Origin: Bilabrum cf. latius
Lineage: Eukaryota
DNA: 64,000 nt
NCBI GenBank assembly: GCA_965178125.1
Contig: OZ237755.1
Coordinates: forward strand, 806,001-870,000
Direction: 5' to 3'
The notes beneath the pieces are model-generated. The model saw nothing but the letters and a program-made list of their open reading frames with translations. It ran no database searches and was not told the origin of the DNA. Shown here piece by piece: positions 1-64,000 of the stretch. Numbering within the stretch: position 1 is the first letter of the stretch; the number at the start of each line of letters is the position of its first letter. Made by a program: the position numbers and the translations under genes.

Positions 1-917
1 TGCCTGTGACGCACCTACCGGTGGGCCGCGCGCATCGACTGCACCCGTACATGCCAACTGGAAGCAAAGCGCAGCCAGCAGCCATCGCCCTTCACACCCA
101 CATCGCAAGCAAGTATCCTTAGGATGCGATGTACACACCGGCGGGCGCAGCTGCTGGGGGCATGCATTCGGGTGCCTCGGCCCACGCAGAGAACAATGCG
201 CCTCTGGGATACGAAACGTGGGAATCAAGGGGTTCTCGCGCCGCCGCAGCTGCCAAAAAGCACGGTGGGGGTGCCGGCCTCGAGGCTGCTTTCATACCCG
301 ACGAGGTGGGGGGAGTGGGTGAGCAGCCAAGCATGGCAAGCAGTGCGGACAGCGGTACACCCACAGCCATGGGAGGGGTCGGGCCCGGCGTGGGTGGGAT
401 CATGGATGGTGCTGCCGCGCTGGAGGGGCGAGGGACGGTGCACGCCGCGAGAGCAGCAGCACGGGCGGCCCAGTCGCAGGGCACTGGCGATGCAGCAGCG
501 GTGGCTGCCGCAGCCGCCACAGCCGCCATCACAAGCGGCCAGCCGGACACGGCTAGGAGGGAAGGCAGCGCGGGCGGGCCAGGCACCGGCCGGGGGCAGG
601 CGTCCATGAGCAGCAGCAGGAGCATGGGCAGGGGCAGGGATGCCGATGCACCGCACTCGTCATACACCCAAGACGACACGACGCTGGGCGGGGTGCAGCA
701 GGGGCAGGAGCAGGACAGGTACGAGAGGCGGGTGGCGGCTGTCGCGCGGCAGAACAGGCCCGTGGCAGTCGCGGCTCTGCGAGAGGAGCTATCGATGCGG
801 GCTCGGCTGGCTGCCGACCGAAGTGGGACGGGCGGGAGCTCCCGGTCGGGCGTGAGGGGCGCTGGTGGAGCGGTCTTGAGCCCACTAGCTGCAAGGTCTG
901 CGGCAGGGCTCGGCTAA
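1..917 (+). CDS. 3' end of a low-complexity Ala/Gly-rich hypothetical protein (runs in from the window edge)
   Basis: Frame 3 is open from the window start through an in-frame TAG at 120-122 to TAA at 915-917. No recognisable domain. Confidence 0.5.
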
Positions 918-999
918 TGGCAGGGTGCATCGCACTGAAATGCGTCGAACCATGGCGTCATCAATATCTTGTTCTCATTCGTTCACCACAGTCTTCGGA

Positions 1000-3900
1000 A
1001 TGTATTTCAATAGTATTTGTTGCTTTGTATGTCTGGTGGCATCGCGGGGTTCGTTTGCCGCTACGTGCAATGCCTCCACTGTGGTCAGACTGCTATCCCA
1101 AGGAAAAGTTCTAAGCTCTGAACTTGTTGAGGCTTCCTCGCAAGCCATGAAAGCTGGGATAAGCACGCAATATGAAAACGCGACCCTTGCGGTCGCGCAG
1201 CAGTTCATGTCGCAGTACATTGAGAGAGATCTGCTGCACGGAAACTCGTCAGGATTCGTAGCTTCTATCCTGGGTTGGGATGTGTACCACGAGAAAGAAA
1301 CGCCCGAAAAGGCATATTCCGATGCGCAGGATCAGCTATGCGTTGAAGCTGCTCAGGTAGTCACGCAGCTGTAGCTTGCCATCGAAGCCATCGAGCAGGT
1401 GGTGAAGCCTGGGGCCCCAAGGCGCCCGGTTGCCCCAAACAGTGCCCCCCTAGCTGTCTCTGCAGGATGGGACGCATCCTCTGGCTTGCTGCGAGCAACT
1501 TCGGCAGCAGATGCGGGCAGAGTTGTGTATCCATCCAGCTACTGCTACGCACTTTGCCCCGTCCCGTTCCCGCCAGCAGATCTGCAAGGGGTGCGATCCA
1601 TCACTGGCGCGCACACAATGTCATACCAGGGCGTGCACTTGAGTGACACCCTGCTTCCTGCAGAGGGGGTGGTCAACACCACCGAAATCGGTGCTCTCGC
1701 AGAGCGAGCGCGGGACGCGCAACAGCGCAACGGGCTGCGCGTCCACATGTTTCTGGACCAAAGAGCCATCCCCAGCTGGGCCGAGGCAGCGTATCCGGGC
1801 ATCACGAACTACACGAACCACGACATTGCGTTTCAGATGGACCATCCTGCAGCTAAGACGCTATGGTAGTCGGTACTGAGCCGCCTGATGCCAGCACTGC
1901 AGCAGGCCCTACGTCCGGGCACGTCGCAGCCCCTAGGTGAAGGTCGAAGCCCAGCTGCTGCTGCTGCCGACGACTACATGCCTCTGAGCTACATGGTGTG
2001 CAACGAGTGCGGGTTTGACGTCGTTGGCGGGCCGTACGGGCTTGCTGCCTTTCGCGACTGGCTGCGTGCGCCCAGCCAGTACAACGGTAGCATCGTTGCC
2101 CTCAACGCGATGTGGGGCACCAATTATGCGTCATTTGAAGACGTTGATGGATTCCCTAGCGATGCGCCTGAGAACACCGACCGAGCAGTCCCGCCCTCGT
2201 CCCCCGAAGCAGCCGGCACGGCCCAAAGCGAGTCGCCCTCTGTATCCCCAAGCATCCGCGTGCCACATCAGGCGGCAGGGTATTACGACTTTGCACGATT
2301 TATGGGTCAGAGACCAGCCGATTTCTTTGGCTGGATGCTGGAGGAGATCCGCAAATACCATCCAGGAGCCAGGGGCCACATCAAGTCGCAGAATCACGGC
2401 AGCTTTGGTGCGGGCGGCGCCAGCGGCGGCATCGATCGCGAGCTTGTGGCGAGGCGCCTTGGCATCGTTGGTGCCGACACCCGCTCGATGCCGGGCAAGT
2501 ACAGCAAGCTGTGGGCACCCTATCAGGAGACGTCTTGGCAGTCCTTCGACTGGCGCGCCCCTGCCCTAGGCTACGCGCTCATGCGGGGCATCGGGCGAAT
2601 CCCCCAGCCTCCGAGCCTTGCTCCTAGTGGAGCAGCAGCAGCTGGGCCGCAAACGTGCGGGCCCCGGTCGTTGCGCTCTCCCGGGGCCGCAAAAGCGAGT
2701 CTGTCAGGGCCCGTTGCGTGGCAGTAGCTGCCCGCTCTCGAGTCAGAGCTGCACGCAGTGAGCATGTCGAATGCTCGGGCTCGCAACATCAGCGCCAAGC
2801 ACATGCGCGCTGTCCTGCTCCTATCTCACGCGGCTGGAATCAGCGGCCACACTGCTTGGTTCTGGGACCGCACGGCGAATGGCACCGTTGCAAAGTCGGG
2901 TTTCCTGGGTGTGTGGTCCGACACCTACAGTGACAAAGATTGGCGGGAGACGAGCGTGCGGGCGAGCGCGGCAGCTGGCTCCATGTCAACTGCGCCTCAG
3001 AACGGTAACTCGGGCTTTGCCTTTTCCAGCGCCATGTTTCCCTCCGTCGTGGACGGTGCCGCGCGGACCATGCTGCAGATCAACGCAGCCAGCGAGGCGA
3101 TTGCAGCGCTGGCTGATGCGTCGGGCAAGGACGCCACCGTAGTCTGCGTGCTCCACTCGATCCCTTCAGGTGTTCTCGGGCAGCACGCATTCGGCCAAGC
3201 TTAGATTACTGCCATGGAAGCTGCGCTGCTGTACGGGGGCAGGTAGGTCAGGATTGTGACGGACAGGCAAATAATAGAAGCGGGAAGCGGTGCGATGGAA
3301 GGATGTGCTGCGCTTGTGCTGCCTGCGGTCGGGTATGCTCAGGACGAGGTCGTGGGTGGAGTTCGATCGTGGGCTATAGCTCAGCGGGCGCGACTCTCTG
3401 GCCATCTGAGCGAGGATGGTATGGGCGAAGCAGGCAGCCTTCCCTTGCTTGTCCTGCGAGCAAACGGGACTGTCGGCAGCCGAGGTGTTGTGCATGCAGA
3501 TGATACTCAGGCCGGAGATGTTCCAGCACGGCAGCTTGCTTTCGGCTGGGACGAGCACGGGCGGCCTCGCTCTGATGGCGATTTGCAGTTCCTGCTGGAC
3601 TCATTCCACATCGAGCCAATGGAGCCAAGAGGACTGCTTCAGCAGTGGATGGAGCCCGCTCTTGTCAAGCTAGGCGCGAGCCGACCGCTCGTGTGGGTGG
3701 ATCCAAACAGCGGGGTCCAGGCGCAGGGCCTCCTCTCTCGATGGGCTCCCATGCCCGGGGAAGGGCAAGGCATTCTGATTCGGATGCCCACCCAGCAGGC
3801 CGATGGCAGCGAGGTTTTCGTCGTCTTTGTCGTAAATGTGAGCGACAAACCAGTGCAGGCTGCTCTATGCGGTGGCATCGCGGCCGCTCCGGTGCTCCCG

Positions 3901-4059
3901 TCCGCGCCCCGGTCCATCGCGCTGCAAGAGAGGTGCGTGCAGAACGCCACCGACGCTGCTACTGCCTAGGAGGTTGAGCTAGGGGGCGCAGATGGCATCG
4001 TGCTGCAACCATCCGACAGCCTCCTACTACTAGTCACATTACCGATTGCCCTCACTTGA
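1000..4059 (+). CDS. Secreted beta-galactosidase-like glycoside hydrolase (GH42-like), ~1020 aa with TAG=Gln
   Basis: Five same-frame ORF pieces joined by TAGs at 1372, 1867, 2725, 3202, 3244 and 3967, ending TGA 4057-4059. Motifs CNECGF, AFRDWLR..YNGSIVALNAMWGTNYASFEDV, YYDFARF and ESELH fit GH42. Hydrophobic N-terminus. The start could instead be 940 or 952. Confidence 0.75.
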
Positions 4060-4386: not shown

Positions 4387-5463
4387 GCTTGATTCGCACG
4401 CTACCCCCCCCCCACCCCTGCGGCACACTCGCACCACCCGTCCCCATGACTAGCCCTCCTTGCGCACATCTAGCGTGTTCTCCATGCACTCGTCTCACAC
4501 CATCCTCAGTTTTCTCATTCCTCTGCTCACTGCACTTCTCCTTCCCCTTCCCCTTCCTCTGCCTCCCCCCCCTTCTTCTCCTCCCCCTCCCCATCCTGTC
4601 CCGCTTCCGCCTCCCCCTTTCCGCGTGTCTGCACAGCCCTAAAGGCACGCAGGCAGCAACACAGTTCGCCGGGGGCTGCATGGCACATGTATGACGTGAC
4701 CAACGAAGGCAATACCGGCACAATGACGGGACTACCACGAAGGCGAATATCGTGCACACAGTCACATCCAGTATCATCAAGGTCGCTGCATTCAAGCAAT
4801 AGGATTTGATCAGCAAATCTCCATCCTTCCTCCCGCACTCATACCGCAAGGCCTGCCATATCCTTCCCCCATCATCAGGATTATAACGACTCTCAACCAG
4901 ATCCGCGTACAATTTGTCTATTGCTTCTCGCCACACCTCAGTGCACATAGCAAGCACACAGCCTGCAACTAGCATGTGTACTGCATATGTGCACAATCTT
5001 GCGCATCCTGCTGTCCAGCAATGAGCTCGTTCTCTTGCTTCGATGCCGGTCTTGCTGGCCTTGAACCGATACAGCGCAACATCGCGGTCGAACAATTGGG
5101 CGATGCGCGAAGAGCAACACTTGTAACAGCACAGCAACGGAATATAGTCCTCCAGAGTATCCATGCCATGAAGGCACGCGCGTTCGCCTCCCTATACAGC
5201 TTTGAGCTACGTAGTCTTGCTAGCGATGGGGATAGGAGCGACGCAGCTCCCCCGCTAGGAGCGGGAAGCGTCGACGTTTGACGCGCTAGGTTCAGGACTT
5301 TTGCATCTTTTCCGTGGACGCGAGGTGGCGCGACTTGGCATCGGGTGATCAAGCGTTGAGCAGCGGGCGACAAGTCTGGAGGCTGGGTGGTATACGGACG
5401 GGAACGCCGCGTACCGTATTCAAGTTGAGATAATTTCACACAACAAAACCTATCGAAAGTTCT

Positions 5464-5857
5464 TACCACACTATGTACTCACGGGTCATGCAGGACCACT
5501 CAAGGATCCTCGATTTTGTCTCGAAGGGATCGAGGAGGGCTGCAGCGAAGGCCAAACGGGCGCTCGCAAGGGCGGTCCGGGAGGACTTCGCCAGCCTGGC
5601 TGTAGGGGCAGCCGAAAACAACAACCTCGCCGTGGCGATCGCCAACGTCAAGGCAGGGTTGGCTCAGAACGGGCAGCAGGACGGGGTGCCGGCAGCGGGC
5701 GCCGGAGGGAACGTGAACGCTGACGCTCCCCAGGGGGAAATGGGTCCCCAGGGTGGAGCTTAGGTGGTTTAGGCCATTGCAGCTGAAGCGTGAAGTCTGG
5801 TAGGTCCCGGGCCCTCGTTCCAGATGTTTCTTCGTGATAGCGTGCGCTTTTGAGTTG
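5464..5857 (+). repeat. Dispersed repeat carrying the 3' end of an ORF (MYSRVMQDHSRILDFV...AIAAEA, TGA 5791-5793); second copy at ~57325-57700 (-)
   Basis: Near-identical translation in both copies. It lies next to fragments of the non-LTR element at both loci, so it is possibly part of that element or of a sister family. Confidence 0.75.
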
Positions 5858-5889
5858 TGAAAAGTCGTATCGTTACATTCAATCATCAT
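5855..5889. repeat. 35-bp inverted repeat, partner 7318-7352
   Basis: TTGTGAAAAGTCGTATCGTTACATTCAATCATCAT is the exact reverse complement of 7318-7352. Confidence 0.9.
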
Positions 5890-7326
5890 TATGCTGGAGC
5901 ACGAAGCAGGCAAACTGTTGGGCGAGACCCCCCTCGACTACACGCGGCAACAACGGCAACAGGTGCAGGACGTGAGGATCGCAATTCGCTCACGCAGGAG
6001 TGCACACACAGCAGAACCCATCAGGCAATGCCACGGAGGCATCACTGAGGCAGTCTTCCAACAGGAGGTATGCGCCAGGCTGTACGTGCCCTACGTCAAA
6101 GCGCGCCCCATCGCTCAGCTGCGGACCAAGCTGACGACAGAGGGGCAGCAAGACCTCGAGAAGGAGAAGAACCACACGTGCCCGATGCCCAGGTGTGGTA
6201 AGGAGGGATATTTGCACGACCCACTGCATTGGGCACGGTGCGGATCAGGAAAACAGCACACATTCCAGAAGGGCTTCGCCACGCGAGGCAGCGTGACAAT
6301 CGAAGAGATCCTCGGCAACATCATCAACACCGCCGTAGGATTTCGTAGAACGATGAAGCCACGTGGGCTGTTCAAGGAGAGAGGTAGGTACGCGGACGCG
6401 ATCTACACAAGGAAGGATGGCATCAACGTAGTCGTCGACGTGCTTGTGGCACAAGCACACACGGGCAAGTATGCACGCCACATTTTCGACGAAACGAGGG
6501 GACCAGGCAAGCGGTCGGGGGCAGACTGGCAGAACGAGAGCGCACTATACGCAGGGGCGTAGGTGAAGCTGCAGATGTACTACCAACCCAAGGACCAGAC
6601 GAGGCTGATCGCAGGACAGGTGCGGGTGGGAGGCAACGCGCCCAGCGAGAAGGTCTGCAAACACCTGAAGTACCCGGAGAGGTACATTTTCCGAGACTTC
6701 GTCGTTCTACACACCGGGAAACTTGGTACCGGCGCATGGAAGGTCTTAGAGGAACTGGCGAGGATCAGGCGAGAGCGAGTTGGGCCAGAACAGAGCAAGA
6801 GCGTGGACGCACAGGTCAGGACGTGGGCCAGGCGCATCACGATGAGTTTGGCAACGACACGGGCGAAGTACATGAACGACTATTACAAACATGTTCAGCT
6901 GGTTACTACGCGCCGTGCCATTGCCGAGGAGGAGAAGAGGAGGGAGGACGCAGAGAGAGCGGAACAGCAACAGGAAGCAGCAGCAATGGCAGCGGCAGGT
7001 GAGGCGGCAGAGGCCGCAGCACTCGCAGCAGTCGTTGAACAGACCGAAGCTGAAGCCGACCAGCAGCAGGGAGAATTGCCGGTCGCACTCAACCTGCAGG
7101 GCGGAGCCCGGGGAGGAGCAGTCGCAGCTGCTGACCCTGGCGAAGCACCTCCTCAAGGGATCGAGCCCGAGGATCCAGGAGCTCCAGCTGCAGCACAACC
7201 CCACCACGGCGGGGTATAGGTGCTTCTGGATCATCCTGAGTGAACTCGGGAGTCTCGATGAGTGCCACAGAGATTAAGTGTTGGACGAGGGTCCGATACG
7301 AAATCTCGAAGGTGATGATGATGATT
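5890..7326 (+). mobile_element. 5'-truncated 3' part of a non-LTR retrotransposon (CCHC finger + REL endonuclease); left arm of a palindrome
   Basis: Reverse complement of 7352-8788. Encodes CPMPRC..HWARC, RYADAIY..VVVDV and FRDFVVLHTGKLG, stops at TGA 7241-7243, and ends in a (GAT)n tail. Confidence 0.85.
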
Positions 7327-7351
7327 GAATGTAACGATACGACTTTTCACA

Positions 7352-10300
7352 AATCATCATCGTCACCTTCGAGATCTCGCATCGGACCCTCGTCCAACAC
7401 TTAATCTCTGTGGCACTCATCGAGACTCCCGAGTTCACTCAGGATGATCCAGAAGCACCTATACCCCGCCGTGGTGGGGTTGTGCTGCAGCTGGAGCTCC
7501 TGGATCCTCGGGCTCGATCTCTTGAGGAGGTGCTTCGCCAGGGTCAGCAGCTGCGACTGCTCCTCCCCGGATTCCGCCCTGCAGGTTGAGTGCGACCGGC
7601 AATTCTTCCTGCTGCTGGTCGGCTTCAGCTTCGGTCTGTTCAACGACTGCTGCGAGTGCTGCGGCCTCTGCCGCCTCACCTGCCGCTGCCACTGCTGCTG
7701 CTTCCTGTTGCTGTTCCGCTCTCTCTGCGTCCTCCCTCCTCTTCTCCTCCTCGGCAATGGCACGGCGCGTAGTAACCAGCTGAACATGTTTGTAATAATC
7801 GTTCATGTACTTCGCCCGTGTCGTTGCCAAACTCATCGTGATGCGCCTGGCCCACGTCCTGACCTGTGCGTCCACGCTCTTGCTCTGCTCTGGCCCAACT
7901 CGCTCTCGCCTGATCCTCGCCAGCTCCTCTAAGACCTTCCATGCGCCGGTTCCTAGTTTCCCGGTGTGTAGAACGACGAAGTCCCGGAAAATGTACCTCC
8001 CCGGGTATTTCAGGTGTTTGCAGACCTTCTCGCTGGGCGCGTTGCCTCCCACCGGCACCTGTCCCGCGATCAGCCTCGTCTAGTCCTTGGGTTGGTAGTA
8101 CATCTGCAGCTTCACCTACGCCCCTGCGTATAGTGCGCTCTCGTTCTGCCAGTCTGACCCCGACCGCTTGCCTGGTCCCCTCGTTTCGTCGAAAATGTGG
8201 CGTGCATACTTGCCCGTGTGTGCTTGTGCCACAAGCACGTCGACGACTACGTTGGTGCCATCCTTCCTTGTGTAGATCGCGTCCGCGTACCTACCTCTCT
8301 CCTTGAACAGCCCACGTGGTTTCATCGTTCTACGAAATCCTACGGCGGTGTTGATGATGTTGCCGAGGATCCCTTCGATTTCCCCACTGCCTCGCGTGGC
8401 GAAGCCCTTCTGGAATGTGTGCTGTTTTCCTGATCCGCACCGTGCCCAATGCAGTGGGTCGTGCAAATATCCCTCCTTGCCACACCTGGGCATCGGGCAC
8501 GTGTGGTTCTTCTCCTTCTCGAGGTCGTGCTGCCCCTCTGTCGTCAGCTTGGTCCGCAGCTGAGCGATGGGGCGCGCTTTGACGTAGGGCACGTACAGCC
8601 TGGCGCATACCTCCTGTTGGAAGACTGCCTCAGTGATGCCTCCGTGGCACTGCCTGATGGGTTCAGCTGTGTGTGCACTCCTGCGTGAGCGAATTGCGAT
8701 CCTCACGTCCTGCACCTGTTGCCGTTGTTGCCACGTGTAGTCGAGGGGGGTCTCGCCCAACAGTTTGCCTGCTTCGTGCTCCAACATAAAACGTTCGCAC
8801 TAGGCGTACGCTGCTGCAGCCCTGAGCAGGCTCTGATGGTTGCCTCCCATGATGACGCGCTCTGGTCCTGCCTACTACAGCTTCAGATGCACCCAGTCTG
8901 ACAGGTTCTTACTCTCCATGAGCCATGCTGGGGGTTTTGGTATCGCCTTCTTTGCTCGAGCGAGACGATCCGTCCCGGTGGACGGTCCCCGTTCTGCGGG
9001 TGGGGGTGGAGTCGGATCTCCGGGGATCTCGAGTGATTTGCCAGGCGGGGGCATGATCACGTTTGCCAACTTGGGTCCTGTCTGCGGGTCTCGAGCAGCT
9101 GCTTGGAACTTCTGTGAGTTCCATACTGTCTGTAGGAAAGTGGGAAACAAATCGGTGGCGAGAGGCTGGAATGGCTATACGTTCCGCTCGAGCTCGTTGG
9201 GCAGTTCCTTCTTGCCCCAAATCAGCCTCTTCATCTTGTCCAAGGTGTACCTGAGGGCCCAGTCTGCCACCTCCAGCAGGGGGGCACTGTGTAGGCCAAA
9301 GGAGGGAGCCCGCTGCTCAACCTCTCCGTCTCTCGCCGGCTCGACCAGGGAGTCGAGAGAGTTCAGGTATGGTAGGTCATACTTCTTCCCCATGCTGAAC
9401 AGACCCGCCACGACGTCCAGGCACATTCCTGAAAACATCGCGAGTCTGATCAGCAGTGGGGGTACCAGACCTATGTCCAGGCCACCTTGCGCCTGAGACG
9501 AATTTCTTGCCTGCTTGGCAATGGCGATTCTGAGCTAATCGTCCAGTTTCTCGAGCATTGTCGAGTTGAAATTGGAAGCGTAGTCGCCGATCACTTGGGA
9601 CAAACGCTCCAATTTGGCAAACGTGCCGCTGCCCGTGAGGCCCAGCGTGGTGCCCGACCTGTGAAGGTGGTCCCACATGGGTTTCACGCAGTCTCGGAAC
9701 GCTCGGAAAGCCTCGGAGGGTGGCAGCTGCACACAGAACATGCTCAGCTGACAACATCTCTTGACTCTGTCCTTGACGAAGTCCTCCACGAACTGCCGCT
9801 TGTTGGAGATGGGCACCCCAGCCACGACCATCCCGTCGGCTTGGGTGCGTCCCTCCAGCCGGCCCGCGGCAATCGAGGCATTGACCTGAGTCAGCGCATC
9901 TGAGGAGTTCGAATAGAACGCGGTCTTGCTGCCTTGCAGCTCGAGACCATCCACACTGAGTTCATGCTTCAGTGTGGCGAAAGCAGGGACTATGTCATCA
10001 TGCAGGCCTAGCATGAACACGTCGTCCGCGATTGCAAGGAACATCACGTCCTTGCCCGTGTGGCCTTCCTCTTCCCGCACCTTTTTCAGTGCTCGGTCGA
10101 GGGCGAGGCAGAAGATCGGTGCGCTGAGAGGAGAGCCCTAGGGCACCCCCTCACAGTTCATCGTCACCTCTACCTCGCCATCTCCACCAACCACTGAGCC
10201 CAGCCCGGCTGTCCGGAACTGAGCGGCGACGTAGGGGAGCGCCTCGGACTTGAACTTCTTGAGTGCCTCAAGAACTGCTGCCCGTTTGATGGACCCGAAC

Positions 10301-10440
10301 GCATTCTTCGCGTCACAGTGTACCAGGAGAACTTCGTCTCGCAGGCCCATCACGAAACGTGCCGCAAAAGCGATTGCGTCTGTTCCGCATTTTGCCCCTC
10401 CCCCGAACTGCTCTGGGCAGCAGTGCTGAGTTGAGTCCAC
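7352..10440 (-). mobile_element. Non-LTR retrotransposon with restriction-like endonuclease (CRE/R2-type superfamily), 5'-truncated
   Basis: Single ORF with RT then CCHC zinc finger then REL endonuclease, and a (GAT)n 3' tail. An in-frame TGA lies just upstream of 10440. Clade assignment is inferred from motifs. Confidence 0.85.
7435..10440 (-). CDS. Reverse transcriptase-endonuclease polyprotein (~1000 aa, continuous with TAG=Gln)
   Basis: Six same-frame pieces separated only by TAG. Motifs QFGGG..GTD, HCDAKNAFGSI.R, GVP*GSPLS, FLAIADDV, GLELQGSKT, VAGVPI, GGLDI, CCHC, RYAD..D. Stop TGA 7435-7437. Confidence 0.85.
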
Positions 10441-10649
10441 AAAATATCAGATCCCCCAAAGTTCTTCAACTTTCGGCGCCGGTATCCGGGTCGGCTTGAG
10501 CGAGTTGCCCTTGCGCTACTCCCGGATCCGCCGAATTGTCTATATTCCTGGGTGCATCGTTAGCATCCTGTCCCTACTGAAGTCCAGTATGCTGTGTACG
10601 ATGTGTGATTTCTAGCGGACATGCCCTGCCGGCAATACTGCCAAGCAGC

Positions 10650-11478
10650 TTGAGCTCGGGGGCGCAGATGGCATCAAAAATCAGAGCGCCCCACCTCGCT
10701 CTCTTGTCGCCTACGGCTGCAGCACCACGTCCGACTTATCTGTGGTTGCGTATCCTTCCGATGGCGGCATCGGGATAGGGGGATACAATCCCCCCATCCT
10801 AGCCCGGAACTCCTCCGGGTACCCGGCCCCACCACCCCTTCCTACATTCCTGCCCTGTCTGTGCCCCCCGCTTCGTCCACCCCGCCCACCTCGTCCACCT
10901 CGTCCACATTTCCTCCATTCCACCAACCCCCCTTGTACTTATCCTTCACCTCAATCACGCCACACGACTTGTCGACTCGCCCGAGAGCTGCGCGACCTCA
11001 GGCTTAGAGGTGCAAGCCCCTCGCGCACAAGCATCAGACAGCCTGCTTTGCGCGAGTCACCGCACCGATTGCCTTAACTTTTAAAACGAAAAATTGAGTA
11101 GTTGACCTGACCTTCTTGATTTATAATGAGCTAGGGGGGGGGGGGGCACTGCCGAGCACACGAAGCATTCCATTGGTCTACGGATTATATCAGCAAGGCA
11201 AAACCGCACAAGAAGCTCAGTCAGGTCTCGTAATCCTTGCCCTCAGCACCTGCACTGCCTCTTCAGTCTCAACACCGGCAAGCCACAGTGACCTGCCCAG
11301 CGCGGCACACTGGCTCTCATGCTACACGTTCGCGCGCAAATCCGCCTTATCGCGCCCCTGGAAGTGTTCATCGTTTAGCAGCATGCTGCCCAGCCCCTGC
11401 GAGTGGTCGGGGATCCTAGCCAGCATCTCAGCTGCGTCTCTAGGCTGCACGGGGGTCAGGAGCGCCTCAACAGCCCAC
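10650..11478 (+). repeat. Right copy of the decayed direct duplication (partner 3974-4386)
   Basis: Same collinear blocks. This copy carries the intact 3' end of the 11217-16559 gene, while its GH42-like part is decayed. Confidence 0.7.
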
Positions 11479-14400: not shown

Positions 14401-16559
14401 GGCTCGTGCACGCCACGGGGCGACACACCGAGCCGAAACCCGCAGGCAGCCGTCCACGCCACCAGCGGAGCCCCGCCTGCACCCACTGCCGCCTCTCTCG
14501 TGGACTGCCCGACGACAGACTCTGCCTGTTCCCTGTCCACCCACGCGGAAGGGTCGCACCTGAGGCCTTGCACGAGCTGCATGAGCAGAGACGACGCCCG
14601 CGTGAAGCCGTGCCTGGCCGCGGCCCCTCGCCACGCGTCCACCCACTCGAACACGCTCACCAGCCCACCGGCAGAGACTGACGCAACGTCCGGATCCATC
14701 GGGTCGTCGTCGGCCCGTGACCCCGACGTCACCGCCGAGTGATACCCGGAACCTCTGAAGGCCGACGCCCCCACCATGCGGCCCCCGCGCTCCCTGCTAC
14801 CTGCCCGGCGACCGCTCGATGCCGAGGCCCCTGACCCCACGCTCCTCCTTCCCGAGCTGTCGTCCCTGCCCCTGTCACGGCTCTCGCTGGACTGCGCGCG
14901 CCGATGCCGGAGGCGATGCCCCCTCCCGTTGTTCCCTGGGTCGTCTTCCGACTTCGCGAGACCATCCACGTGCTCGTTCAGGTTTCGAAAGTACGCGGCC
15001 TGCCCGTGGCCAGCGACACCCGCGGGGGAGATAAGGTCCCTCGGGCCTCCCCCTGACGTCGTGGGTGCCAGCTGCATGGATTGCGTGCTATTTGGTCCCG
15101 TGGAAGCGTCTTCGGAGGCTGCCCCTCCCGCGCCCGAGGAGGCCGAGCCCTAGGTGCTCCCCTGCGGCTCCGCGTTCCGGACCGTGATTGTGGCTGAGGC
15201 CTCGTCGACGCTGCTGCGCCTGCGGGAGGCGCGGCCGCGTCTGCGCCCTCCTTGTGCTGCACCAGATCTAGCCTGCTGCGCTCTCGCCGGTGATCCCGGC
15301 CCCGGCATCTGGGCTGCTTCGGCGGCGACAGCGCCGATCGGAACGAGGCACTGTCGCAGGGCGCGGCGGATTTTCGCGACTGGTGCTGCGCTCACAGGGT
15401 CTTTAAGGCGACCTATTTGCCGCAGGGCACGCGTCTACGACTGCTCAGCGATGGATGGGCCCACTGGCAGCTGCTGCGCCTTCTGCTCGGCCAAGCCTGC
15501 GGCTGGCTGCTGCTCGAAAGCGTCGCTGGAGGCTCTCTGCGTACCACCCGCATCTGGCTTGGAATGTGTTGCTTCGTTTGCCTCATTTTTTGCAGCCACT
15601 AGCGTGTCAATGCACGTTGCAATCGCCAGGTCGAGGTTTGCAGCAAACCTCGGCAGAGGGAGGATCGCTCTGCCCCGGGACACTTCCAAGAATGATGTAA
15701 TAGCTGCTCTAGCAAACTCAGACGGCTGCGAGAGAGCAATTCAAACCAATTATAACTGATAGCGCGTCCTACTCAGCAAAACAGATGTTTTGATGCACAA
15801 CACGGCCTGAGAGCCAGCACAAGCGCCAATCAACATATCTTACCTTAAAGCTAGCAGCCTGACCTTTCGCATACCAAGGAGCCGCTACAATGTGAGATAC
15901 CCAACCTTTTCCTTCTGGGCTAAGCGAGCCATGGCTTGAGGACAGCCGGGCAAGTCCGGCGAGCTCAGAGGCAGCGCGTGCAACGAGGTCGAGCGCTGGT
16001 TGAAGTCTGTCAACGCTCAAATACAAGTTTGAGACTGGCAGTGCACCTCCATCTGGCGAACGGACTACAGAGGCATGCTGCAAGAGCCGCGGGGCTTCTA
16101 CCATCATGGCTGAGTCGGGTGCGAGGGTCGCAATCCGTGGGAGCTTGGAGCTGTACGACAGCGAGCTGGCGTCTGCACCATCTCTTTGACGATCTCTGGC
16201 TGTCTCCAGCTACTCTAAACCTGCTAGCTAGCACAGCTCATGTTCTAACTGATTTGCCCGAAATCCACTGCTCTCTCTGGCTTCACTGCAAACACAACGG
16301 GCAGTGCAACGACGTGGGCATGCGCGGTCATGCGAACACAACAGACAAAGCTCAGCAGCAATATATCAACATAAGCTTACAGTCTAGTCGATATTAGCTC
16401 CGATAGATCACTCGAGATACCCGTTGCTCTAGTACGAAAAAAATCTCGAACTTCGCGAGCCGATATCTCCCCGTTCCCATCTGTGTCGATGGCTTGGAAC
16501 AGAGACTTCACTAGACTATGAATCTACGCTGCTGCATGCAATTCTTCTCGAGAACCCAT
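11217..16559 (-). CDS. Large (~1700 aa) protein with an N-terminal EF-hand; two predicted introns (~16286-16380, 15726-15843)
   Basis: Same-frame ORFs linked by TAG (e.g. 11529, 15150, 15435), stop TGA 11217-11219. GTAAG...CAG introns keep the frame. Canonical EF loop FQAIDTDGNGEISAREV. The start is uncertain. Confidence 0.65.
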
Positions 16560-18000: not shown

Positions 18001-18055
18001 TGGACTCACCGCGCCTTCGCAACCACTAGGGCGGGCACATCGCTGCACACCTATA

Positions 18056-52817: not shown

Positions 52818-54112
52818 TCAAGAAGCGCTCCCAATATCAGAGACCTCCGGCGTCTGCTGTTGCTTCTCCTGGTCTGCTTCAGGAAGCAGTCCAACCTCAA
52901 TATCTTCCTCCTCCTCTGCTGCCAGACTCTTTGCCTCAGACCCCTTCGTAATCGCTACTGTTACAGCCTACACGGTCGGCTTAACCTTGCTACCAGTGAT
53001 TGGTGCAGAGTCTACTAGTGAGCGCATGCCAGCGGCAGCTTCGGCACCAACAGCTTCGCTGGGCAACTGCTCGGCCTGCTGACCATGCTCACAGAGTTTC
53101 ACAGCTGCAAACGCCCCGCCTCCAAGCAAAGAGACTGCAAGTCCAGCTATCTTGAGCGGTGTGGGCACAAAGTCCCCGAAAGCAATCGCTCCGAATACTG
53201 TCGCAAACACATCTTTCAAGTTCCCGGTAATCGAGGTCAGCAGAGGCGAGTTCATGGTGGCCGACAAGAAGACCACGTAAGTCATAAATGTGCCTAGGGT
53301 GCTAGCGACCACAAATGCAGTCCAAAACAGCGGGTTCTAGATGTGCTCGAAGCTGGCGGCCTTTTCAAAATCGCCAAGAACGATGGCTCCCACCAGCGCA
53401 AGCGGAACTGCAGTGATCGAGTTGTAGTACACAAGCCCAAAGCCTTTCGTATCAGTCATGTCACTAAACCTCCGCGAAACGATCAAATAGAGGGCTGACA
53501 GGACATTATTCATCATCGTAAAAATGTACCCTGTGAACTCCCCACCAAGCTCCTCATACCCAGCAATGACAGTCCCTGCCATAATAACTAGTACTGAAAG
53601 TACAACCATACCAGATTGCTTCGTGCCTAGCAAGAAGAACTCCCCAACCATGGTCAAAATTGTCGTAGTGCGGCGCAAGCACAGAAAAAAAGGCACGTTT
53701 ATCAGTTGCATGCCGTACCAGCCGACAGCAATATTAGAAACAAAGAGTGCGCCAACAGGAATCGATTCAATGTACGTGCTCCACTTAAAGCCTGGTACGT
53801 GCATTCCTGGGATATCCTACATGGTTGCTTGAGCGACAGACGTGAAGATCAAACCAGCCCCAACCTGCCCAAGAAGCAGTATGAACTTGCTATCAAACTC
53901 CCACGAGCTAAGTAATGCCTGCGGCAAATCTTATGATCTCGACTTACGACAACCATTGGTCCCGGGTTCGGTTTATGAGATTCAATGAGTATCTTGCGAG
54001 CAGCTCTCACCTTGTAACAAAGGGAAATAGCAATAGAAGTGATACCATACAAGGCGCATATATAAAAGGTTTGCTTGTTAAGAATGCTTGAAGCGGAGGG
54101 ACCCCTTGACAT
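52818..54112 (-). CDS. Nucleotide-sugar transporter (SLC35D/GONST-like); intron 53919-54010
   Basis: Multi-TM protein with INVPFFLCLRR, FGLVYYNS and NSPLLTSITGNLKD. In-frame TAGs, phase-0 intron, stop TGA 52818-52820. Confidence 0.88.
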
Positions 54113-55075: not shown

Positions 55076-55360
55076 GCCCTGATGGTTGCATCCAATGATG
55101 AGTCATTGATGACGTACCGAAACGTAAAATACTAACATCAATATAATCACACACAACGAAACACGATCATAATACCGATTTTAGAGTTGCGTGCACCTAC
55201 ATTGGGATTTTGTAACGAGTATTTAGTAGTTTTGTCGTATTGTTCGTTGTCCTGTCCCAAATTGGACTCCCAATACTTCTGTACATCACCACCAGGTTTT
55301 ATTTGGTCCATCAACTCCATTGTGTTACTTTAACAATTGATTATTACTGGTGGCTTCCAT

Positions 55361-56944
55361 ATGCTGCTCTTTGGCGGTGTCTTGGTCGTATTGCACTCAA
55401 TGCCAGCAGTCCACGCTGTATCATATTGGGACGAGGAAGCGGACCTTAGTTAGAGGTTGCACCCACTGATCAAAGAGGAAACAAGTATGCCAGTTACGGT
55501 GCTCGTTCCTCTTGCGGTGCCGGATCATGACGGCAGCGATGAAGGCTTGCTCAAGTACTCCACCACGTTCGAAGCCGGCACAAAAGCAAAGGAGAATTGG
55601 TGCAAACGCCACGGATATACCCTTCACGCCTAGATCCTTGGCACCAGTCACCCAGAGTGGATGTGGGCGACGCAGCCGCAAGGAAAAGAGTTCCCAGTGA
55701 ACCCATGGAGCCAGAACTTCGTCAGTCGCGTCAAGCGACAGCCAAGCCTTACAGCCGTGCACGGAAGGCATGCCAAGTCTTTAGCAGTGATTGACTTTCT
55801 ACGGGAGAACCCGGACTACTTGGGCTGGATACTCATGGTAGATTCAGACACGTTCATCGGGGACTGCTCGAAGTCGCTGCTTCCTTTCCAGCTCCAAATG
55901 ATCACTGTTGGCAAAGTTGAACGGGTCCTCGAAGACACCAATATTCTCGAGGGGCTTTGGCCTGCTGGATCTGAGTTTTCATACCACGCTGACCGTGATG
56001 AGGACCGGCAGCGTTGGGGGACTGGGGGCATCGGGCGAGGCGCGCTGGAGCCTTGGTCCAAGCTGCTGAACCTGACCACGGCCAAGGATTTGGGACTCGA
56101 ATCAAAGCCTATGCACATCAAGGAAGGCACGCGGTTTCCTAGCATGGACCCGGGGCTGGTGGAGCACCTGCAGGACTGGAAGCAAACTGCAACCCAGCCG
56201 CAGGGTGGCACCCCCTACGTATTGGCCCCCCCCGGGACTCCGTGGTTGGAACAGGCCCTCGTCGCCCTCGCTGAGCACAAGTACAGCAACTCAGGCGTCA
56301 TCATGTTTCGTGCCACGACCCCGCAGCGGAGGCGCAGGGTTGATTTCCTCCTGAGGCGGTGGTGGGAGCTCGCCACTGATGGCCTCTTCTCGCACACGAG
56401 CTTCGACCAAGCCGCCATCCGCTCGATGCTCGTTGCCGACTTTGTGGCTCCAAGTAGAAATGTTACACCGGTGCCATTTCAAGCTTTATCATGCTAGCGG
56501 CTTCCGCACGAGACGAACCCGTTGGGGAAGCACGGCGCGGATATCTGGCACCGGTGCATCGAGCGATGGATCATGGCTATGGGATACACGTTCCAAGCCA
56601 AGCCAGGGGACCCGCTGCCGAAGCCTTACGTGGATGGGACTGCATTCACCCAGGCCGAGCATAGGCAGGTCAAGAAAACACCGCTGGGAAAGCTGCACAG
56701 GCCTGGCGAGAAGATTGTGCACAACCTCGCGTTGATCAACGAGGACGCAGCTCCTATGCTCTACTTCAGGTCCTGGTTTCCGTCTTCTGTCGGTGCTCAT
56801 CACCGCAAGGAGGAGCGTCCGCCTGGCAGCATGGAACTGCACTGCATGGAGCCCTCTGTGAAGGACAAGCAAAGGTGCATCGTCATGCACACGGGTCACA
56901 AAACGTGGAAGAACTGGCTGGGCAAGATGCAATGCTCAGCCTGA
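55361..56944 (+). CDS. GT34-like (GMA12/MNN10 family) glycosyltransferase
   Basis: Signal-like N-terminus. Motifs KENWCKRHGY, WILMVDSD (DxD), SNSGVIMFR, FDQAAI. Three in-frame TAGs, stop TGA. Confidence 0.75.
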
Positions 56945-59411: not shown

Positions 59412-60649
59412 ATGTTCTCAAAAGGCTGCACCAAGTCCATAGGCTAGACCCAGATTGCCTGCGGACTCGCTGGTATGTTGATTGGGGCTGCTACCACACT
59501 TACGCTAGTGTTCGCAACGGACCGCCCGATAGCAGCGAATCAAGGTGAGTTGCTTTTACTTTCCTATAAACATGGCTTGCTAGGGCATCATCTTGTGTTG
59601 GTCCACGCGTGTTACTCTCTTCAGCAGATTTGCAACCAACGCACTCCAGCGTTTCTACTCACCCAGGAGAGGCCCTGAGCCAAAAAAGCTTGCATTCTAG
59701 TTCTTTGGGGGCCCAAGATGGGAATTAGCATGTGACCTCGCCTGTAGTCTCACTGCAATCGTGCCCAATTCATCCACCTGTGCCTTCACAGGCACCAGCA
59801 CCGATACCATTCAGACTAGGGGAGTGCGATGCCGCAAACATTACTGCAGCTAGAATTGACAGGGGTCTGCCAAAAGCCCAGCGCACGAAGTTTCAATTCC
59901 AAGGCCACTCCTTCTAGATGGCTGTGCATGCGGGCTCCGATTGGGTGAGCAAATCTGTCAAGGAGACCGGCTATTACGGGGATGTTGGAGTGGTGTCCGC
60001 TGCCGCAAAGAGGATCAAGGACAGCGGCAGAGAGCTAGGGCTGTTTGTGGACGCAGGAACAAACATTGGGGTATTTACTTTCTTTGCTCACCACGTTGGG
60101 TTCAAGCACATCATATCGTTTGAGCCCACGGCGATCAACATGGCTCGCGTGCAGGAGACTGTGGCGATCAACCAGATCCAGTCGATTTCAGCATACAAGG
60201 CAGCGCTCGGAAATGATAATACCTGCGTTGATATGGCAGTGGATTGGTCTACGCAGAAGACCAATTTTGGCATGAACCAGGTCGTTGCGGACAGAAACCG
60301 GGCTACCGCCAAGTCGATCGAGCACGTACGCATGACTCGCATGGACGACATAGTGCCGGCTGATGCAGGCCCAGTACAGCTCCTCAAGATGGATATTGAG
60401 GGGAGTGAGTGCGAGGCACTCAAGGGGGCGCGCGACTTGTTTGCTGCTGGCAGGGTAGAGCAGATATTCATCGAGGTGCATCCGTAGGCGCTCGAGGCTC
60501 TTGGGTGCAGCGCCAATGGGCTGGGTAAGATCCTGGAGGCTCTTTGCATGGACGTCTCCAAGTTCGTGTGGGACCGGTAGGGCGCCGGCGATTTCAACGC
60601 CTACAAGGTACCCGGCTGCACGGTACCACCGCGGTCGGAACTGCCGTGA
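59412..60649 (+). CDS. FkbM-family methyltransferase, type II membrane; intron 59545-59624
   Basis: Motifs FVDAGTNIG, ISFEP, KAALG, RMDDIV, LLKMDIEGSE, IFIEVHP. In-frame TAGs, stop TGA 60647-60649. Confidence 0.85.
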
Positions 60650-62150: not shown

Positions 62151-62423
62151 TGCTCTTGCTTCCGTAGGTCGAGCCGTACTTGGAACGGACTTGTGGCATA
62201 ACTTTTAAAGACTTATCGCACAAATAAAAACTCGTGGAGAGCCTCTAGGCGTAATCTTGCTTGCTGTGGTGATTTGGTGTGTGGTGCAGTCATCATCATC
62301 AAATGCGTGATGCCCGCTCGGCCCGACAGCGCATGTTTGCACCATTCAAGCGCAAGCGCGACGTAGTGTCGAGGACATTTAATTTCAGTTTGCTGTCGCT
62401 TCAGAGAGAGGGGCGTTGCAGCA

Positions 62424-64000
62424 ATGTTGCCGACGAATGAGACCGGTAAAATGAAGAAAGGTGCACTGGCGCAGCTGTTGTCAACTGGTGTGATTGCCGG
62501 CATTTCGCTGGCTTTATGCTGGTTGGTTGGTGCCATCAGCAGTCATGGAACTGGATTTCACCATCGTGTGAAGCCAACCCATAATAATGCAACTCTGCTA
62601 GGCAGCGTGGACCTGGACCAGAGGGACTCTGCTTCAGATTAGGGGTGTTCCCAATAGTAGCTCGGAGAGGCATTGACATAGGAGAGTTTGCTTTAGATTT
62701 TTTGCCAGTACCACACGGCAAGTCACAAGAATGGGCCCAGCTGGTCCGATTGCATCCAGATTGCTCGCCAGCAGCTTGAGTATGCACAATCAGCAGCCCC
62801 CGCATTAGAAAGTACCGACCATAATTCCAAAAGCAGCCTTAGTGATCTACAAGGTATTGCTGGATCTAATCTCAAGAAAACGGGAGTGGGATCTGAACAC
62901 GAACTTGGCATGATTCGCCCTGGTCGATTCAGCGAGCTGCAGGGCGAGCTGCAGAGGATCCTGCTGGAGAATACTATCTTGGAGAGCGCTCGGTTCACCG
63001 ATAGGTCCGTGACACAGTTCTTTGGGAGGATTCACCCGCTTTCGCTGGGTCTTACAGCGGAGCAGCGTGCCAGGCGGCCACTTGATGTGGTGTACCAGAA
63101 GCAGCCATTCCACTGGCAGTGGCACATCGACCAGCACATGCAGAAGGTGCAGCGCCCTATACGCATGATCCTGGACCCCAACTCCCAGCGGTACTAGAAT
63201 AACGCCATTATCGCCGTGAACCACCTCACCTTCAAGCACTCGGATCGGTACTTCACGGAATAGGCCAAGCGAGGCAACACCAACATCGCGGCGCTGCACT
63301 CGGGGGATATCACGATGTCGCAGTCGTACGGGTGGTACAAGAAGACCAAGTTCGTGCTCAGAAATCACTATCCCTCTCGCTCCGTGGCGGTCAAGAAGGG
63401 TATGGCGCTAGACAGGATGTACGTTCTCCCGCTGGGCTCGCTCACCCACGACTCGATGAGCTTCGTGAACAGGGGCGAGTTCGGCAGGATCCAGCTGGCT
63501 AGCAAGCGAAAGCACCTGTGCAATTTCGTGGGTAGTCTCACTCACCACGGCACGAGGATGGCGCTTGGCAAGGCCTTGCATGCGGCCGGCATGGGGCCTG
63601 ACCCATCGAAGGCCAAGTACGAGAAATGGGGGACTGCAGGAGGCGTGAAGTGCTTCACGTACTACTCGGGAGACTGGAAGAATAAGAAGCAGATGCCACC
63701 GTGGGAGTACAGAGCCGTGATCTCGAACAGCGCGTTCACCTTTGTTCCCCGGGGGACGGGCCCCTCGAGCTTCCGCCTAACCGAGGCATTGGAGCTGGGC
63801 TCCATCCCTATAATCAGCGACATCGACAATTTCAACTTGCCGTACGGGGAGCACCCGTTGCCTACCATTAAGGACAGCCAGTGGGGCACGCTGCCACCGG
63901 TACTTGTGAAGATGTATTCGGAGCACCCGGAGGAGCTAGACGCATTGCAAGAGAAGGCCTTCACCTGGTGGCACGCCTGGAAACAGACATACCAGTGGAA
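62424..64000 (+). CDS. Exostosin-family (GT47) glycosyltransferase, runs off the window
   Basis: N-terminal TM. Motifs CNFVGS and SAFTFVPRGTGPSSFRLTEALELGSIPII. At least seven in-frame TAGs. Confidence 0.85.

What the first reader, a model, noticed from the sequence alone, without database searches (positions are those of the whole stretch)
1..64000. Nuclear genetic code with UAG = glutamine while UAA and UGA remain stops
Seen: more than a dozen recognisable genes are cut only by in-frame TAG and end at TGA (most) or TAA (915, 44930). I saw no in-frame TAA in the intact genes. TAG fills Gln positions: the RT motif GVP*GSPLS (10138-10140) and TPR KYS*AI (31447-31449). TAG/CAG swaps occur between paralogues (6596 CAG vs 8080 TAG; 5761 TAG vs 57422 CAG). 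Established: UAA and UAG are usually reassigned together in eukaryotes, and uncoupled nuclear cases are rare (e.g. the fornicate Iotanema, some ciliates, one rhizarian with UAG=Leu). Inference: the GC-rich, intron-poor style with Ala-rich insertions recalls bicosoecid stramenopiles such as Cafeteria. If so, this could be an independent reassignment needing a tRNA-Gln(CUA) and an eRF1 that ignores UAG.
Basis: partly seen in the sequence, partly recalled or inferred. Interest (0 to 1): 0.95.

Follow-up and report, generated by a model that had tools for sequence, protein, structure and literature searches.

The report
Nuclear code reading TAG as glutamine
This stretch of a GC-rich protist chromosome reads the stop codon TAG as an amino acid, almost certainly glutamine, while TGA (and apparently TAA) still end genes, a rare but already known kind of genetic code.

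Summary
In 22 long reading frames (14,070 codons) there are 100 in-frame TAG; 18 frames end at TGA, 3 at TAA and one runs off the window. Per codon, TAG far more often joins two long open stretches than TAA or TGA. Contigs from three runs that carry spliced GT..AG joints hold 26 of 29 in-frame TAG sites unchanged, so the TAGs are neither edited nor spliced out. Where a homologue can be aligned, 7 of 11 nearest residues opposite TAG are Gln. Gln beats the next-best residue (Glu) by 3.3 log10 units. A metagenome relative (L001) and a roughly 90%-identical relative in the protein database show the same pattern. TAA never occurs in frame, against about 44 expected if it were used like TAG, but its role as a terminator rests on few gene ends. 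No tRNA, eRF1 or rRNA could be reached and the organism could not be placed, so the bicosoecid idea is untested. UAG=Gln with UAA and UGA as stops is already described in Iotanema and several ciliates. This is probably a new, GC-rich, TGA-terminating lineage of that known kind.

The parts
3..917 (+). Ala/Gly-rich open frame running in from the window start; 1 in-frame TAG; ends at TAA 915-917
   Evidence: no Pfam family
940..4059 (+). 1039-aa secreted-looking protein (weak GH42-like hit, below cut-off); 6 in-frame TAG; ends at TGA
   Evidence: 170 homologues with E<=0.001. The 89%-identical relative P0012 has Q and S opposite two TAGs. P0020 (96% identical) ends just before a third.
5434..5793 (+). 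Transposon-associated frame with TAG at 5761 and 5770. The paralogue at 57013-57981 (-) has CAG and TAG there. Both end at the same TGA.
5861..7243 (+). Inverted duplicate (97% identical) of the 3' half of the reverse-transcriptase frame; 2 TAG; CAG at 6596 where the other arm has TAG
7435..10446 (-). Retroelement frame of 1003 aa with an RVT_1 domain; 9 in-frame TAG, one at the Q of the G-x-P/K/R-Q-G motif (10138-10140); ends at TGA
11217..15740 (-). 1507-aa frame with no known family; 4 TAG; ends at TGA
19403..21145 (+). Thiamin pyrophosphokinase gene; 1 TAG (20378), present in contigs of X5 and X7
21358..26025 (-). Arg-rich 1555-aa frame; 18 TAG stop-to-stop, 9 of them after residue 214. 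Eight of those 9 are covered by X5 contigs. Relative P0011 (89% identical) ends exactly before one.
26067..27236 (-). Methyltransf_22 gene; 2 TAG (26613, 26901), both in contigs of X7 and X8
28590..30994 (-). Acetyl-CoA synthetase in two exons (30994-30722 and 30422-28590) with a GT..AG intron at 30423-30721. Exon 1 has TAG at 30743 and 30767; exon 2 has none. Ends at TGA.
31144..31818 (+). TPR-repeat gene; 4 TAG, all in contigs of X5 and X8
32286..33866 (-). O-fucosyltransferase-like gene (weak Pfam hit); 2 TAG
34082..36501 (+). Ser-rich gene with introns at 34290-34395 and 34746-34842. The spliced frame is 753 aa stop-to-stop, with 9 TAG after the first Met, all in X5 or X7 contigs. Ends at TGA.
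36609..40430 (-). Transposase-like frame with a DDE_Tnp_4 hit just under cut-off and internal 360-bp repeats; 3 TAG
41596..44932 (+). Transposase-like gene in two overlapping frames (41596-43365 and 43316-44932) with a 21-bp coding repeat; 6+6 TAG. TAA at 43363 is probably within an intron or frameshift. TAA at 44930 is the likely end.
   Evidence: That it resembles hAT elements is my recall only; Pfam gave no family.
52818..53930 (-). Nucleotide-sugar/triose-phosphate transporter family gene; 3 TAG; ends at TGA
55334..56944 (+). 536-aa frame with a weak GT34-like hit; 3 TAG
59570..60649 (+). FkbM-type methyltransferase; 4 TAG in the frame (2 after the first Met); ends at TGA
62202..63998 (+). 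GT47/RXYLT1-type glycosyltransferase, cut by the window end; 8 TAG in the frame

Best explanation
The window is nuclear DNA of a GC-rich (about 58%) eukaryote with spliceosomal introns and transposons. Its cytoplasmic translation reads UAG as glutamine.

UGA is the main terminator. UAA is not used as a sense codon and probably still terminates. UAG supplies about 14% of glutamine codons (100 of 709).

Shown here:
- UAG lies in frame in real genes.
- It is present unchanged in spliced transcripts.
- It sits opposite Gln in relatives.
- At least one environmental relative shares the pattern.

Inferred, not seen: decoding is by a tRNA-Gln with anticodon CUA, which pairs with UAG but not UAA, derived from tRNA-Gln(CUG), together with an eRF1 that no longer recognises UAG efficiently.
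For: Frame structure:
- 22 frames hold 14,070 codons, with TAG 100, CAG 422 and CAA 187. Ends are TGA 18, TAA 3, and one frame is open at the window end.
- The ORF-length and bridging tests single out TAG.
- The base after in-frame TAG (C31, G32, A21, T16 of 100) resembles that after CAG (C141, G147, A82, T52 of 422).

Transcripts:
- Runs X5, X7 and X8 carry contigs that skip 30423-30721, 34290-34395 and 34746-34842 with GT..AG ends. The DNA run X1 does not.
- The listed pieces of these runs, all with 0 other letters, cover 26 of 29 in-frame TAG sites in 19000-36600.

Meaning of TAG:
- GT47 site X258 has Q in 3 of 3 homologues. Site X280 has Q, A, L, with Q in the 91%-identical one.
- TPT site X38 has Q in the two nearest homologues.
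- The TAG in L001's own TPT gene sits in a column that is Q in all 6 other sequences that reach it.
- ORF880 site X596 has Q in the nearest relative P0012 and in P0014 and P0030, with only 4 Q among 20 ungapped residues in that column. Site X769 has Q in P0015, the nearest homologue reaching it, but P in 30 of 69.
- RT site X103 aligns to the Q of LINE-1 ORF2p and R2.
- In total 7 of 11 nearest residues are Q. Gln leads Glu by 3.3 log10 units, or 3.5 with the two ACS columns added.
- TAG/CAG swaps occur in two paralogue pairs.

Relatives:
- L001 (TPT 66-77% identical) has 27 in-frame TAG and no internal TAA in 9 frames (each delimited by TAA or TGA, so by construction). Its bridging counts (at least 80 open codons each side) are TAG 6, TAA 0, TGA 2.
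- Two database fragments, 89% and 96% identical, end exactly where the window has TAG.

TAA:
- None is internal. About 44 would be expected from the CAA/CAG ratio if TAA were used like TAG.
Against: Not every column favours Gln. Four of the 11 nearest residues are G, D, S and L.

The two TAG columns in ACS exon 1 are also not Gln. In 80 bacterial homologues the first is G38/A19/K8 with Q in 1, and the second is R54 with Q in 3.

Many TAGs could not be tested because they lie in genes or segments without alignable homologues.

The frames were delimited by TAA and TGA, so zero internal TAA is partly by construction. The independent support is that the five longest frames do not change when TAA is opened, plus the bridging test.

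TAA termination rests on 3 ends here: one Ala-rich frame, one transposon, and one probably internal. L001 adds 3 more.

The runs called RNA are guesses by the tool (X5 is marked 'probably DNA'). I call them transcripts only because of the spliced joints and the very uneven depth.

No tRNA genes were found: 0 in the window and 0 in L001-L005. There is no eRF1 and no peptide evidence.
Confidence: 0.85

Rival explanations
1. Both UAA and UAG mean glutamine (the common UAR=Gln code), and TAA is simply rare because the genome is GC-rich.
For: UAR=Gln is the commonest nuclar variant according to passages in PMC11687900. TAA is the rarest stop triplet in the window, at 545 against 1020 TAG over both strands.
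Against: CAA is 187 against CAG 422 in the same frames, so A-ending Gln codons are not rare. About 44 TAA would be expected and none is internal. Opening TAA leaves the five longest frames unchanged. Only 1 of 545 TAA bridges two stretches of at least 100 codons. L001 likewise has no internal TAA against 27 TAG.
Confidence: 0.04
2. The code is ambiguous: UAG is glutamine inside genes but also terminates near the 3' end of some mRNAs, as in Condylostoma or karyorelict ciliates.
For: Two frames have a TAG very near their end, 2 codons before the TGA in 21358-26025 and 8 codons before it in the RT frame. No 3'-end data were available.
Against: With about one TAG per 140 codons, such near-end cases are expected by chance in 16-22 genes (my arithmetic). 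In the TPT gene, a shared D-[IV]-E-x-G-L-L motif lies downstream of tail TAGs in both the window and L001, so translation goes on past them. Every frame has a TGA or TAA end.
Confidence: 0.06
3. UAG is a sense codon for another amino acid (Glu, Arg, Lys, Leu, Ser) or for pyrrolysine-like insertion.
For: Non-Gln residues stand opposite 4 of 11 sites. The second ACS column is mostly Arg in bacteria. UAG=Leu, Ser and Glu are all known elsewhere.
Against: Gln leads Glu by 3.3-3.5 and Arg by 3.6-4.3 log10 units. Leu and Ser each appear once among the 11 nearest residues.
Confidence: 0.04
4. The TAGs are damage or artefact: decaying pseudogenes or transposons, assembly error, RNA editing, or in-frame introns.
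For: Several TAG-rich frames are transposon genes. TAG and CAG differ by one transition.
Against: Decay would also give TAA, TGA and frameshifts, and none interrupts the 22 frames. Housekeeping genes (ACS, TPK, a transporter, glycosyltransferases) carry TAG too. DNA and spliced contigs from four runs agree at the sites with no other letters and no joints there. The two inverted-repeat arms differ by 15 synonymous changes (counting TAG=Q) against 17 non-synonymous.
Confidence: 0.01

Closest known systems
Iotanema spirale (Fornicata) nuclear code: UAG=Gln, UAA and UGA stops (PMC5304391; abstract and passages read)
   Same: Same codon table: UAG alone is reassigned to glutamine and UAA is kept as a stop. 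The same predicted mechanism applies, a tRNA-Gln(CUA) derived from tRNA-Gln(CUG).
   Different: In Iotanema UAA is the primary terminator. Here TGA ends 18 of 21 frames. Iotanema is known from transcripts only, whereas this is genomic DNA with introns and transposons at about 58% GC. Whether the organisms are related could not be tested.
Ciliates with UAG=Gln only: Protocruzia tuzeti and two phyllopharyngean lineages (PMC11687900; passages read)
   Same: Same reassignment, with UAA and UGA retained as stops.
   Different: Those ciliates use UAA most and UGA least as a stop, and have 27-54% GC. The window has TGA-dominated ends, 97-299-nt GT..AG introns, several transposon families, and a CCCTAA-type repeat on a DNA contig end. 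None of this is typical of ciliate macronuclei; that last judgement is my own knowledge.
UAR=Gln codes (many ciliates, Hexamita, ulvophycean green algae, Streblomastix, Amoeboaphelidium; listed in PMC11687900)
   Same: A stop codon is read as glutamine, presumably by a mutated tRNA-Gln.
   Different: TAA is not a sense codon here.
Other uncoupled codes: rhizarian exLh UAG=Leu, Scotinosphaera UAG=Ser, ciliate PL0344 UAA=Lys/UAG=Glu
   Same: [quoted passage not shown]
   Different: The amino acid differs. Columns here favour Gln over Leu, Ser and Glu.
Genetic code 15 in crAss-like phages (PMC9523058; abstract in a search listing only)
   Same: TAG=Gln.
   Different: That is a phage using a suppressor tRNA in a standard-code host, not a cellular nuclear code.

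Membership tests
Nuclear code with UAG=Gln and UAA+UGA stops (Iotanema/Protocruzia type) | In-frame UAG in conserved, expressed genes | tested here: met
   100 in-frame TAG in 22 frames. They occur in Pfam-supported genes. 26 of 29 sites are covered by spliced-run contigs with no differences.
Nuclear code with UAG=Gln and UAA+UGA stops (Iotanema/Protocruzia type) | UAG positions correspond to glutamine in homologues | tested here: met
   7 of 11 nearest homologue residues are Q, and Gln is best by 3.3 log10 units. Two ACS columns are not Q in bacterial homologues.
Nuclear code with UAG=Gln and UAA+UGA stops (Iotanema/Protocruzia type) | UAA is not a sense codon | tested here: met
   No internal TAA against about 44 expected. 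Opening TAA does not lengthen the top five frames. 1 of 545 TAA bridges long open stretches. L001 shows the same.
Nuclear code with UAG=Gln and UAA+UGA stops (Iotanema/Protocruzia type) | UAA and UGA act as the real terminators | tested here: inconclusive
   18 frames end at TGA and 3 at TAA. In L001 the counts are 6 and 3. No end was verified by 3'-end mapping or by homologue C-termini.
Nuclear code with UAG=Gln and UAA+UGA stops (Iotanema/Protocruzia type) | tRNA-Gln with anticodon CUA | not testable with these tools
   No tRNA gene in the window or in L001-L005. No genome is held.
Nuclear code with UAG=Gln and UAA+UGA stops (Iotanema/Protocruzia type) | eRF1 with altered stop-codon recognition | not testable with these tools
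   eRF1 is not in the window, and no genome or named eukaryotic library is available.
UAR=Gln code (NCBI table 6 type) | UAA also in frame at Gln positions | tested here: not met
Ambiguous stop/sense codes (Condylostoma/karyorelict type) | The same codon also terminates near mRNA 3' ends | tested here: inconclusive
   Every frame has a TGA or TAA end. A conserved motif lies beyond the tail TAGs in TPT. There are no 3'-end data.
   No Rfam match in the window. Atlas calls were uninformative. The genome-contig scan returned only bacteria.

The most novel reading that the evidence does not exclude
A so far unreported eukaryotic clade has reassigned UAG to glutamine independently, in a GC-rich genome that terminates mainly at UGA. 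The clade comprises the window's organism, a roughly 90%-identical relative in the protein database, and the more distant environmental relative L001. GC pressure should favour rather than remove UAG, so this would be a case against simple codon capture. It would also be a non-ciliate system with genomic DNA in which the tRNA-Gln(CUA) and eRF1 changes can be found directly.
Probability: 0.5. Interest if true: 0.75.

Novelty: new member of a known kind. Interest (0 to 1): 0.6.

Why it matters
Nuclear codes in which UAG and UAA have different meanings are few. The passages read name Iotanema, Protocruzia, two phyllopharyngean lineages, one rhizarian, Scotinosphaera and one further ciliate.

A further lineage outside the AT-rich ciliates would help in two ways. 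It would have UGA as main stop and UAG at 14-19% of Gln codons. It would add an independent data point on how release-factor and tRNA changes can separate the two codons. It would also test whether GC content plays any part.

Practically, standard-code gene callers cut this organism's genes at TAG. The database fragments P0011 and P0020 end at TAG positions. Assemblies of this clade therefore need a TAG=Q table.

Tried and rejected
- The L001 record is not held for the genome search.

Searches that found nothing useful:
- tRNA scan of the window and of L001-L005: none found.
- Rfam at gathering score: 0 matches.
- The RT protein in metagenome contigs and viral contigs: no relatives.
- ACS in genome contigs: 80 loci kept of 594, all bacterial or archaeal records at 54-58% identity. 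They gave nothing on the organism and were used only for the two ACS columns.
- The search for homologous proteins with 'shorter' for ORF 21358-26025: 1 hit only.
- PDB searches for the FkbM and DDE frames: no alignment covers a TAG site.
- Pfam at E<=0.5 for the transposase-like pair, ORF 55334 and ORF 940: only sub-threshold hits.
- Protein atlas: the ACS query returned bacterial and archaeal clusters. The GT47 translation was not accepted by the tool. The database homologue P0008 gave no taxon lead.

Uninformative material:
- L003-L005 (69-75% GC) are open in most frames, and L002 is only 2.1 kb with no bridging codon of any kind. None can be judged for the code.
- The look-up of sequencing runs listed no RNA holder.
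- Introns inside the TAG-bearing stretches were considered as an explanation and rejected. The three joints seen lie elsewhere.

Literature:
- Five full-text searches found no paper describing UAG=Gln in a GC-rich non-ciliate.
- PMC6733595 was checked and concerns plastid codes only.
- Supplementary tables of PMC5304391 and PMC11687900 were not seen. They may hold codon-usage data that bear on the comparison.

Full report
WHAT THE WINDOW IS

The window is 58% GC overall, ranging from 51% to 67% in 4-kb bins. It has no tRNA and no Rfam match.

Read with TAG as a sense codon it holds a dense set of long frames on both strands. Pfam recognises these:
- a reverse transcriptase (7438-10446, minus strand)
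- a DDE_Tnp_4-like transposase, just under cut-off
- thiamin pyrophosphokinase
- acetyl-CoA synthetase (ACS)
- Methyltransf_22 and FkbM methyltransferases
- a TPT-family transporter
- a GT47/RXYLT1 glycosyltransferase
- a TPR protein
- a weak O-fucosyltransferase hit

ORF 940-4059 has 170 database homologues.

Contigs of three public runs skip 30423-30721, 34290-34395 and 34746-34842 with GT..AG ends. A DNA run does not. The window is therefore nuclear DNA of a eukaryote with spliceosomal introns and several transposon families.

In 22 frames (14,070 codons) there are 100 in-frame TAG. Of these frames, 18 end at TGA, 3 at TAA, and one runs off the window.

These frames were delimited by TAA and TGA, so I used two tests that do not depend on that choice.

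First, ORF lengths. Removing TAG from the stop set lifts the five longest frames from 1206, 623, 549, 523, 514 to 1555, 1507, 1273, 1059, 1003 aa. Removing TAA leaves the list essentially unchanged. Removing TGA, the commonest stop triplet, opens many frames but gives a shorter top list (1206, 1010, 770...).

Second, a bridging test. It counts stop triplets that have at least 100 open codons on both sides.

| Triplet | At least 100 codons each side | At least 150 |
|---|---|---|
| TAG | 27 of 1020 | 10 |
| TAA | 1 of 545 | 0 |
| TGA | 13 of 1803 | 1 |

The base after in-frame TAG has the same distribution as after CAG.

ARE THE TAGs IN THE MESSAGE?

No listed run is on record as RNA. The tool's labels for X5, X7 and X8 are guesses.

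I treat them as transcript assemblies for two reasons. They carry the three spliced joints. Their depth is very uneven, about 500 over ACS against about 8 over neighbouring stretches.

Their listed pieces, all with 0 other letters, cover 26 of 29 in-frame TAG sites between 19000 and 36600. The three uncovered sites are 23311, 32592 and 33423. Pieces there may be among the 88 not shown. No difference or joint was reported at any TAG site.

Splicing ACS as the contigs do gives one frame of 701 aa from the first Met. It has two TAG in exon 1, at 30743 and 30767.

The Ser-rich gene at 34082-36501 gives a 753-aa stop-to-stop frame, with nine TAG after the first Met.

Editing, splicing-out and assembly error are therefore excluded for these genes.

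WHAT DOES TAG MEAN?

I translated with X at TAG and looked at what homologues have there.

| Gene and site | Residues opposite TAG |
|---|---|
| GT47 X258 | Q, Q, Q (91%, 60%, 57% identical homologues) |
| GT47 X280 | Q, A, L |
| TPT X38 | Q in the two nearest, then R, P, P, K |
| TPT X198 | G, A, T, T, S, T, Q, T |
| L001's own TPT TAG | Q in all 6 other sequences that reach the column |
| ORF880 X145 | D |
| ORF880 X310 | S (89% relative), E |
| ORF880 X596 | Q in P0012, P0014 and P0030; 4 Q of 20 ungapped residues |
| ORF880 X755 | L; the 96%-identical fragment P0020 stops just before it |
| ORF880 X769 | Q in P0015; most distant homologues have P (30 of 69) |
| RT X103 | the Q of LINE-1 ORF2p 'RQG' and R2 'KQG' |

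The PDB E-values for the RT alignment are weak (0.025-0.05), but the Pfam RVT_1 hit is 8.7e-11.

Taking the nearest alignable homologue at each site, 7 of 11 residues are Q. With BLOSUM62 conditional probabilities, Gln leads Glu by 3.3 log10 units and Arg by 4.3.

Sites dropped before this count:
- the TPT tail site X321, which is unalignable
- the five GT47 N-terminal TAGs that follow the first Met, which no homologue covers (a sixth TAG in that frame lies upstream of the Met)
- ORF880 X1010, which has only four distant hits (L, gap, T, S)
- all TAGs in genes without homologues

Evidence against Gln: the two ACS exon-1 columns, compared with 80 bacterial ACS at 54-58% identity. The first is G38/A19/K8 with Q in 1. 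The second is R54/E5/H4 with Q in 3. Adding their majority residues still leaves Gln ahead by 3.5 log10 units.

Two paralogue pairs show TAG/CAG swaps. One is 6596 against 8080, in arms that otherwise differ by 15 synonymous and 17 non-synonymous codons. The other is 5761 against 57422, next to a TAG that both copies keep.

TAA AND TGA

CAA is 187 against CAG 422 in these frames. A TAA used like TAG should therefore appear about 44 times. It never does.

TGA is clearly the main terminator.

That TAA terminates is less secure. The TAA at 915 ends an Ala/Gly-rich frame with no homologues. The TAA at 43363 lies where a transposase-like gene changes frame, and is probably intronic or a frameshift. 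The TAA at 44930 ends that transposon gene. L001 adds three TAA ends. None was checked against 3' ends.

An ambiguous code, with UAG also terminating near mRNA ends, cannot be excluded. However, the shared D-[IV]-E-x-G-L-L motif lies downstream of tail TAGs in both TPT genes, which shows reading continues past them.

RELATIVES

The metagenome locus L001 (54% GC, TPT 66-77% identical) shows the same signature. Its top frames rise from about 319 to 725, 548 and 451 aa only when TAG is opened. It has 27 in-frame TAG in nine frames. These include an EF-hand gene and a borderline RecX-like frame (just above Pfam's cut-off). Its bridging counts (at least 80 open codons each side) are TAG 6, TAA 0, TGA 2.

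Fragments 87-96% identical to window proteins exist in the protein database (P0007, P0011, P0012, P0017, P0020). Two of them end exactly at window TAG positions, as a standard-code gene caller would produce.

The code is thus a property of a clade, not of one assembly.

L002-L005 could not be judged.

MECHANISM (INFERRED)

A tRNA with anticodon CUA reads UAG but not UAA. Passages of PMC5304391 make the same argument for Iotanema and derive such a tRNA from tRNA-Gln(CUG) by one anticodon change.

Up to 18 TAG occur in one frame, so decoding must be efficient. This in turn implies weakened recognition of UAG by eRF1.

Neither molecule could be examined.

COMPARISON AND NOVELTY

Passages of PMC11687900 list UAG-only=Gln in Iotanema spirale, Protocruzia tuzeti and two phyllopharyngean ciliate lineages. 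They list UAG=Leu in a rhizarian and UAG=Ser in Scotinosphaera. The kind of code is therefore known.

The differences here are these:
- TGA-dominated termination, whereas Iotanema and the ciliates use UAA most
- 58% GC
- ordinary-sized introns
- transposons
- a CCCTAA-type repeat on a DNA contig end

Five literature searches found no description of such an organism. The library covers only open-access papers and bioRxiv.

The organism could not be placed. The bicosoecid suggestion remains a guess.

VERDICT

The code reading is well supported for TAG=sense and for Gln, and moderately supported for TAA=stop. The lineage and the independence of the reassignment remain open.

I rate it a new member of a known kind, with interest 0.6.

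Noticed in passing
window 5889-8789: A 2.9-kb palindrome. The 3' half of the reverse-transcriptase frame is duplicated head-to-head at 97.2% identity, meeting near 7339. Both arms keep an open frame.
   Followed up: partly
window 16950-17998: A 55-bp tandem repeat, 19 copies at 97% match, with long open frames of 372-577 aa in all six reading frames once TAG is read through. The 577-aa frame's one weak Pfam hit (capsid-like, below cut-off) is probably spurious.
   Followed up: no
window 39075-40047 and 43550-43986: Coding tandem repeats inside the two transposase-like frames. One is a 360-bp unit at 2.7 copies, Gly/Ala-rich. The other is a 21-bp unit at 20.8 copies, encoding (AGAAEAG)n.
   Followed up: no
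window 27218-28391: In DNA run X1 the depth rises to about 100 against 37-45 nearby, and several contigs break here. One loose end at 27748 carries CCCTAA repeats. This suggests a dispersed repeat, possibly with an interstitial or terminal telomere-like tract in some copies.
   Followed up: no
window 32634-32814: A cluster of 11 single-base differences in contigs of X1, X5 and X8 but not X7, inside the O-fucosyltransferase-like gene. By my own count 7 of 11 fall on third codon positions. This suggests a second allele or close paralogue under coding constraint.
   Followed up: partly
window 52818-52970 and L001 10950-11083: The C-terminal tails of the two TPT transporters share an acidic D-[IV]-E-x-G-L-L motif downstream of in-frame TAGs. 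It resembles a dileucine sorting signal; that resemblance is my recall.
   Followed up: no
L001 5863-6663: A frame with 5 TAG and a RecX_HTH2 hit just above Pfam's cut-off (E 9.7e-6, 26.2 bits against a cut-off of 26) in the relative's contig. By my recall RecX homologues in eukaryotes are mostly organelle-targeted, so this may hint at the lineage.
   Followed up: no
window 917-1000: Only about 25-85 nt separate the TAA of the first frame from the likely start of the next gene on the same strand, so spacing is very tight. The relative's fragment P0017 begins at the residue aligned to the Met at about 1000.
   Followed up: no
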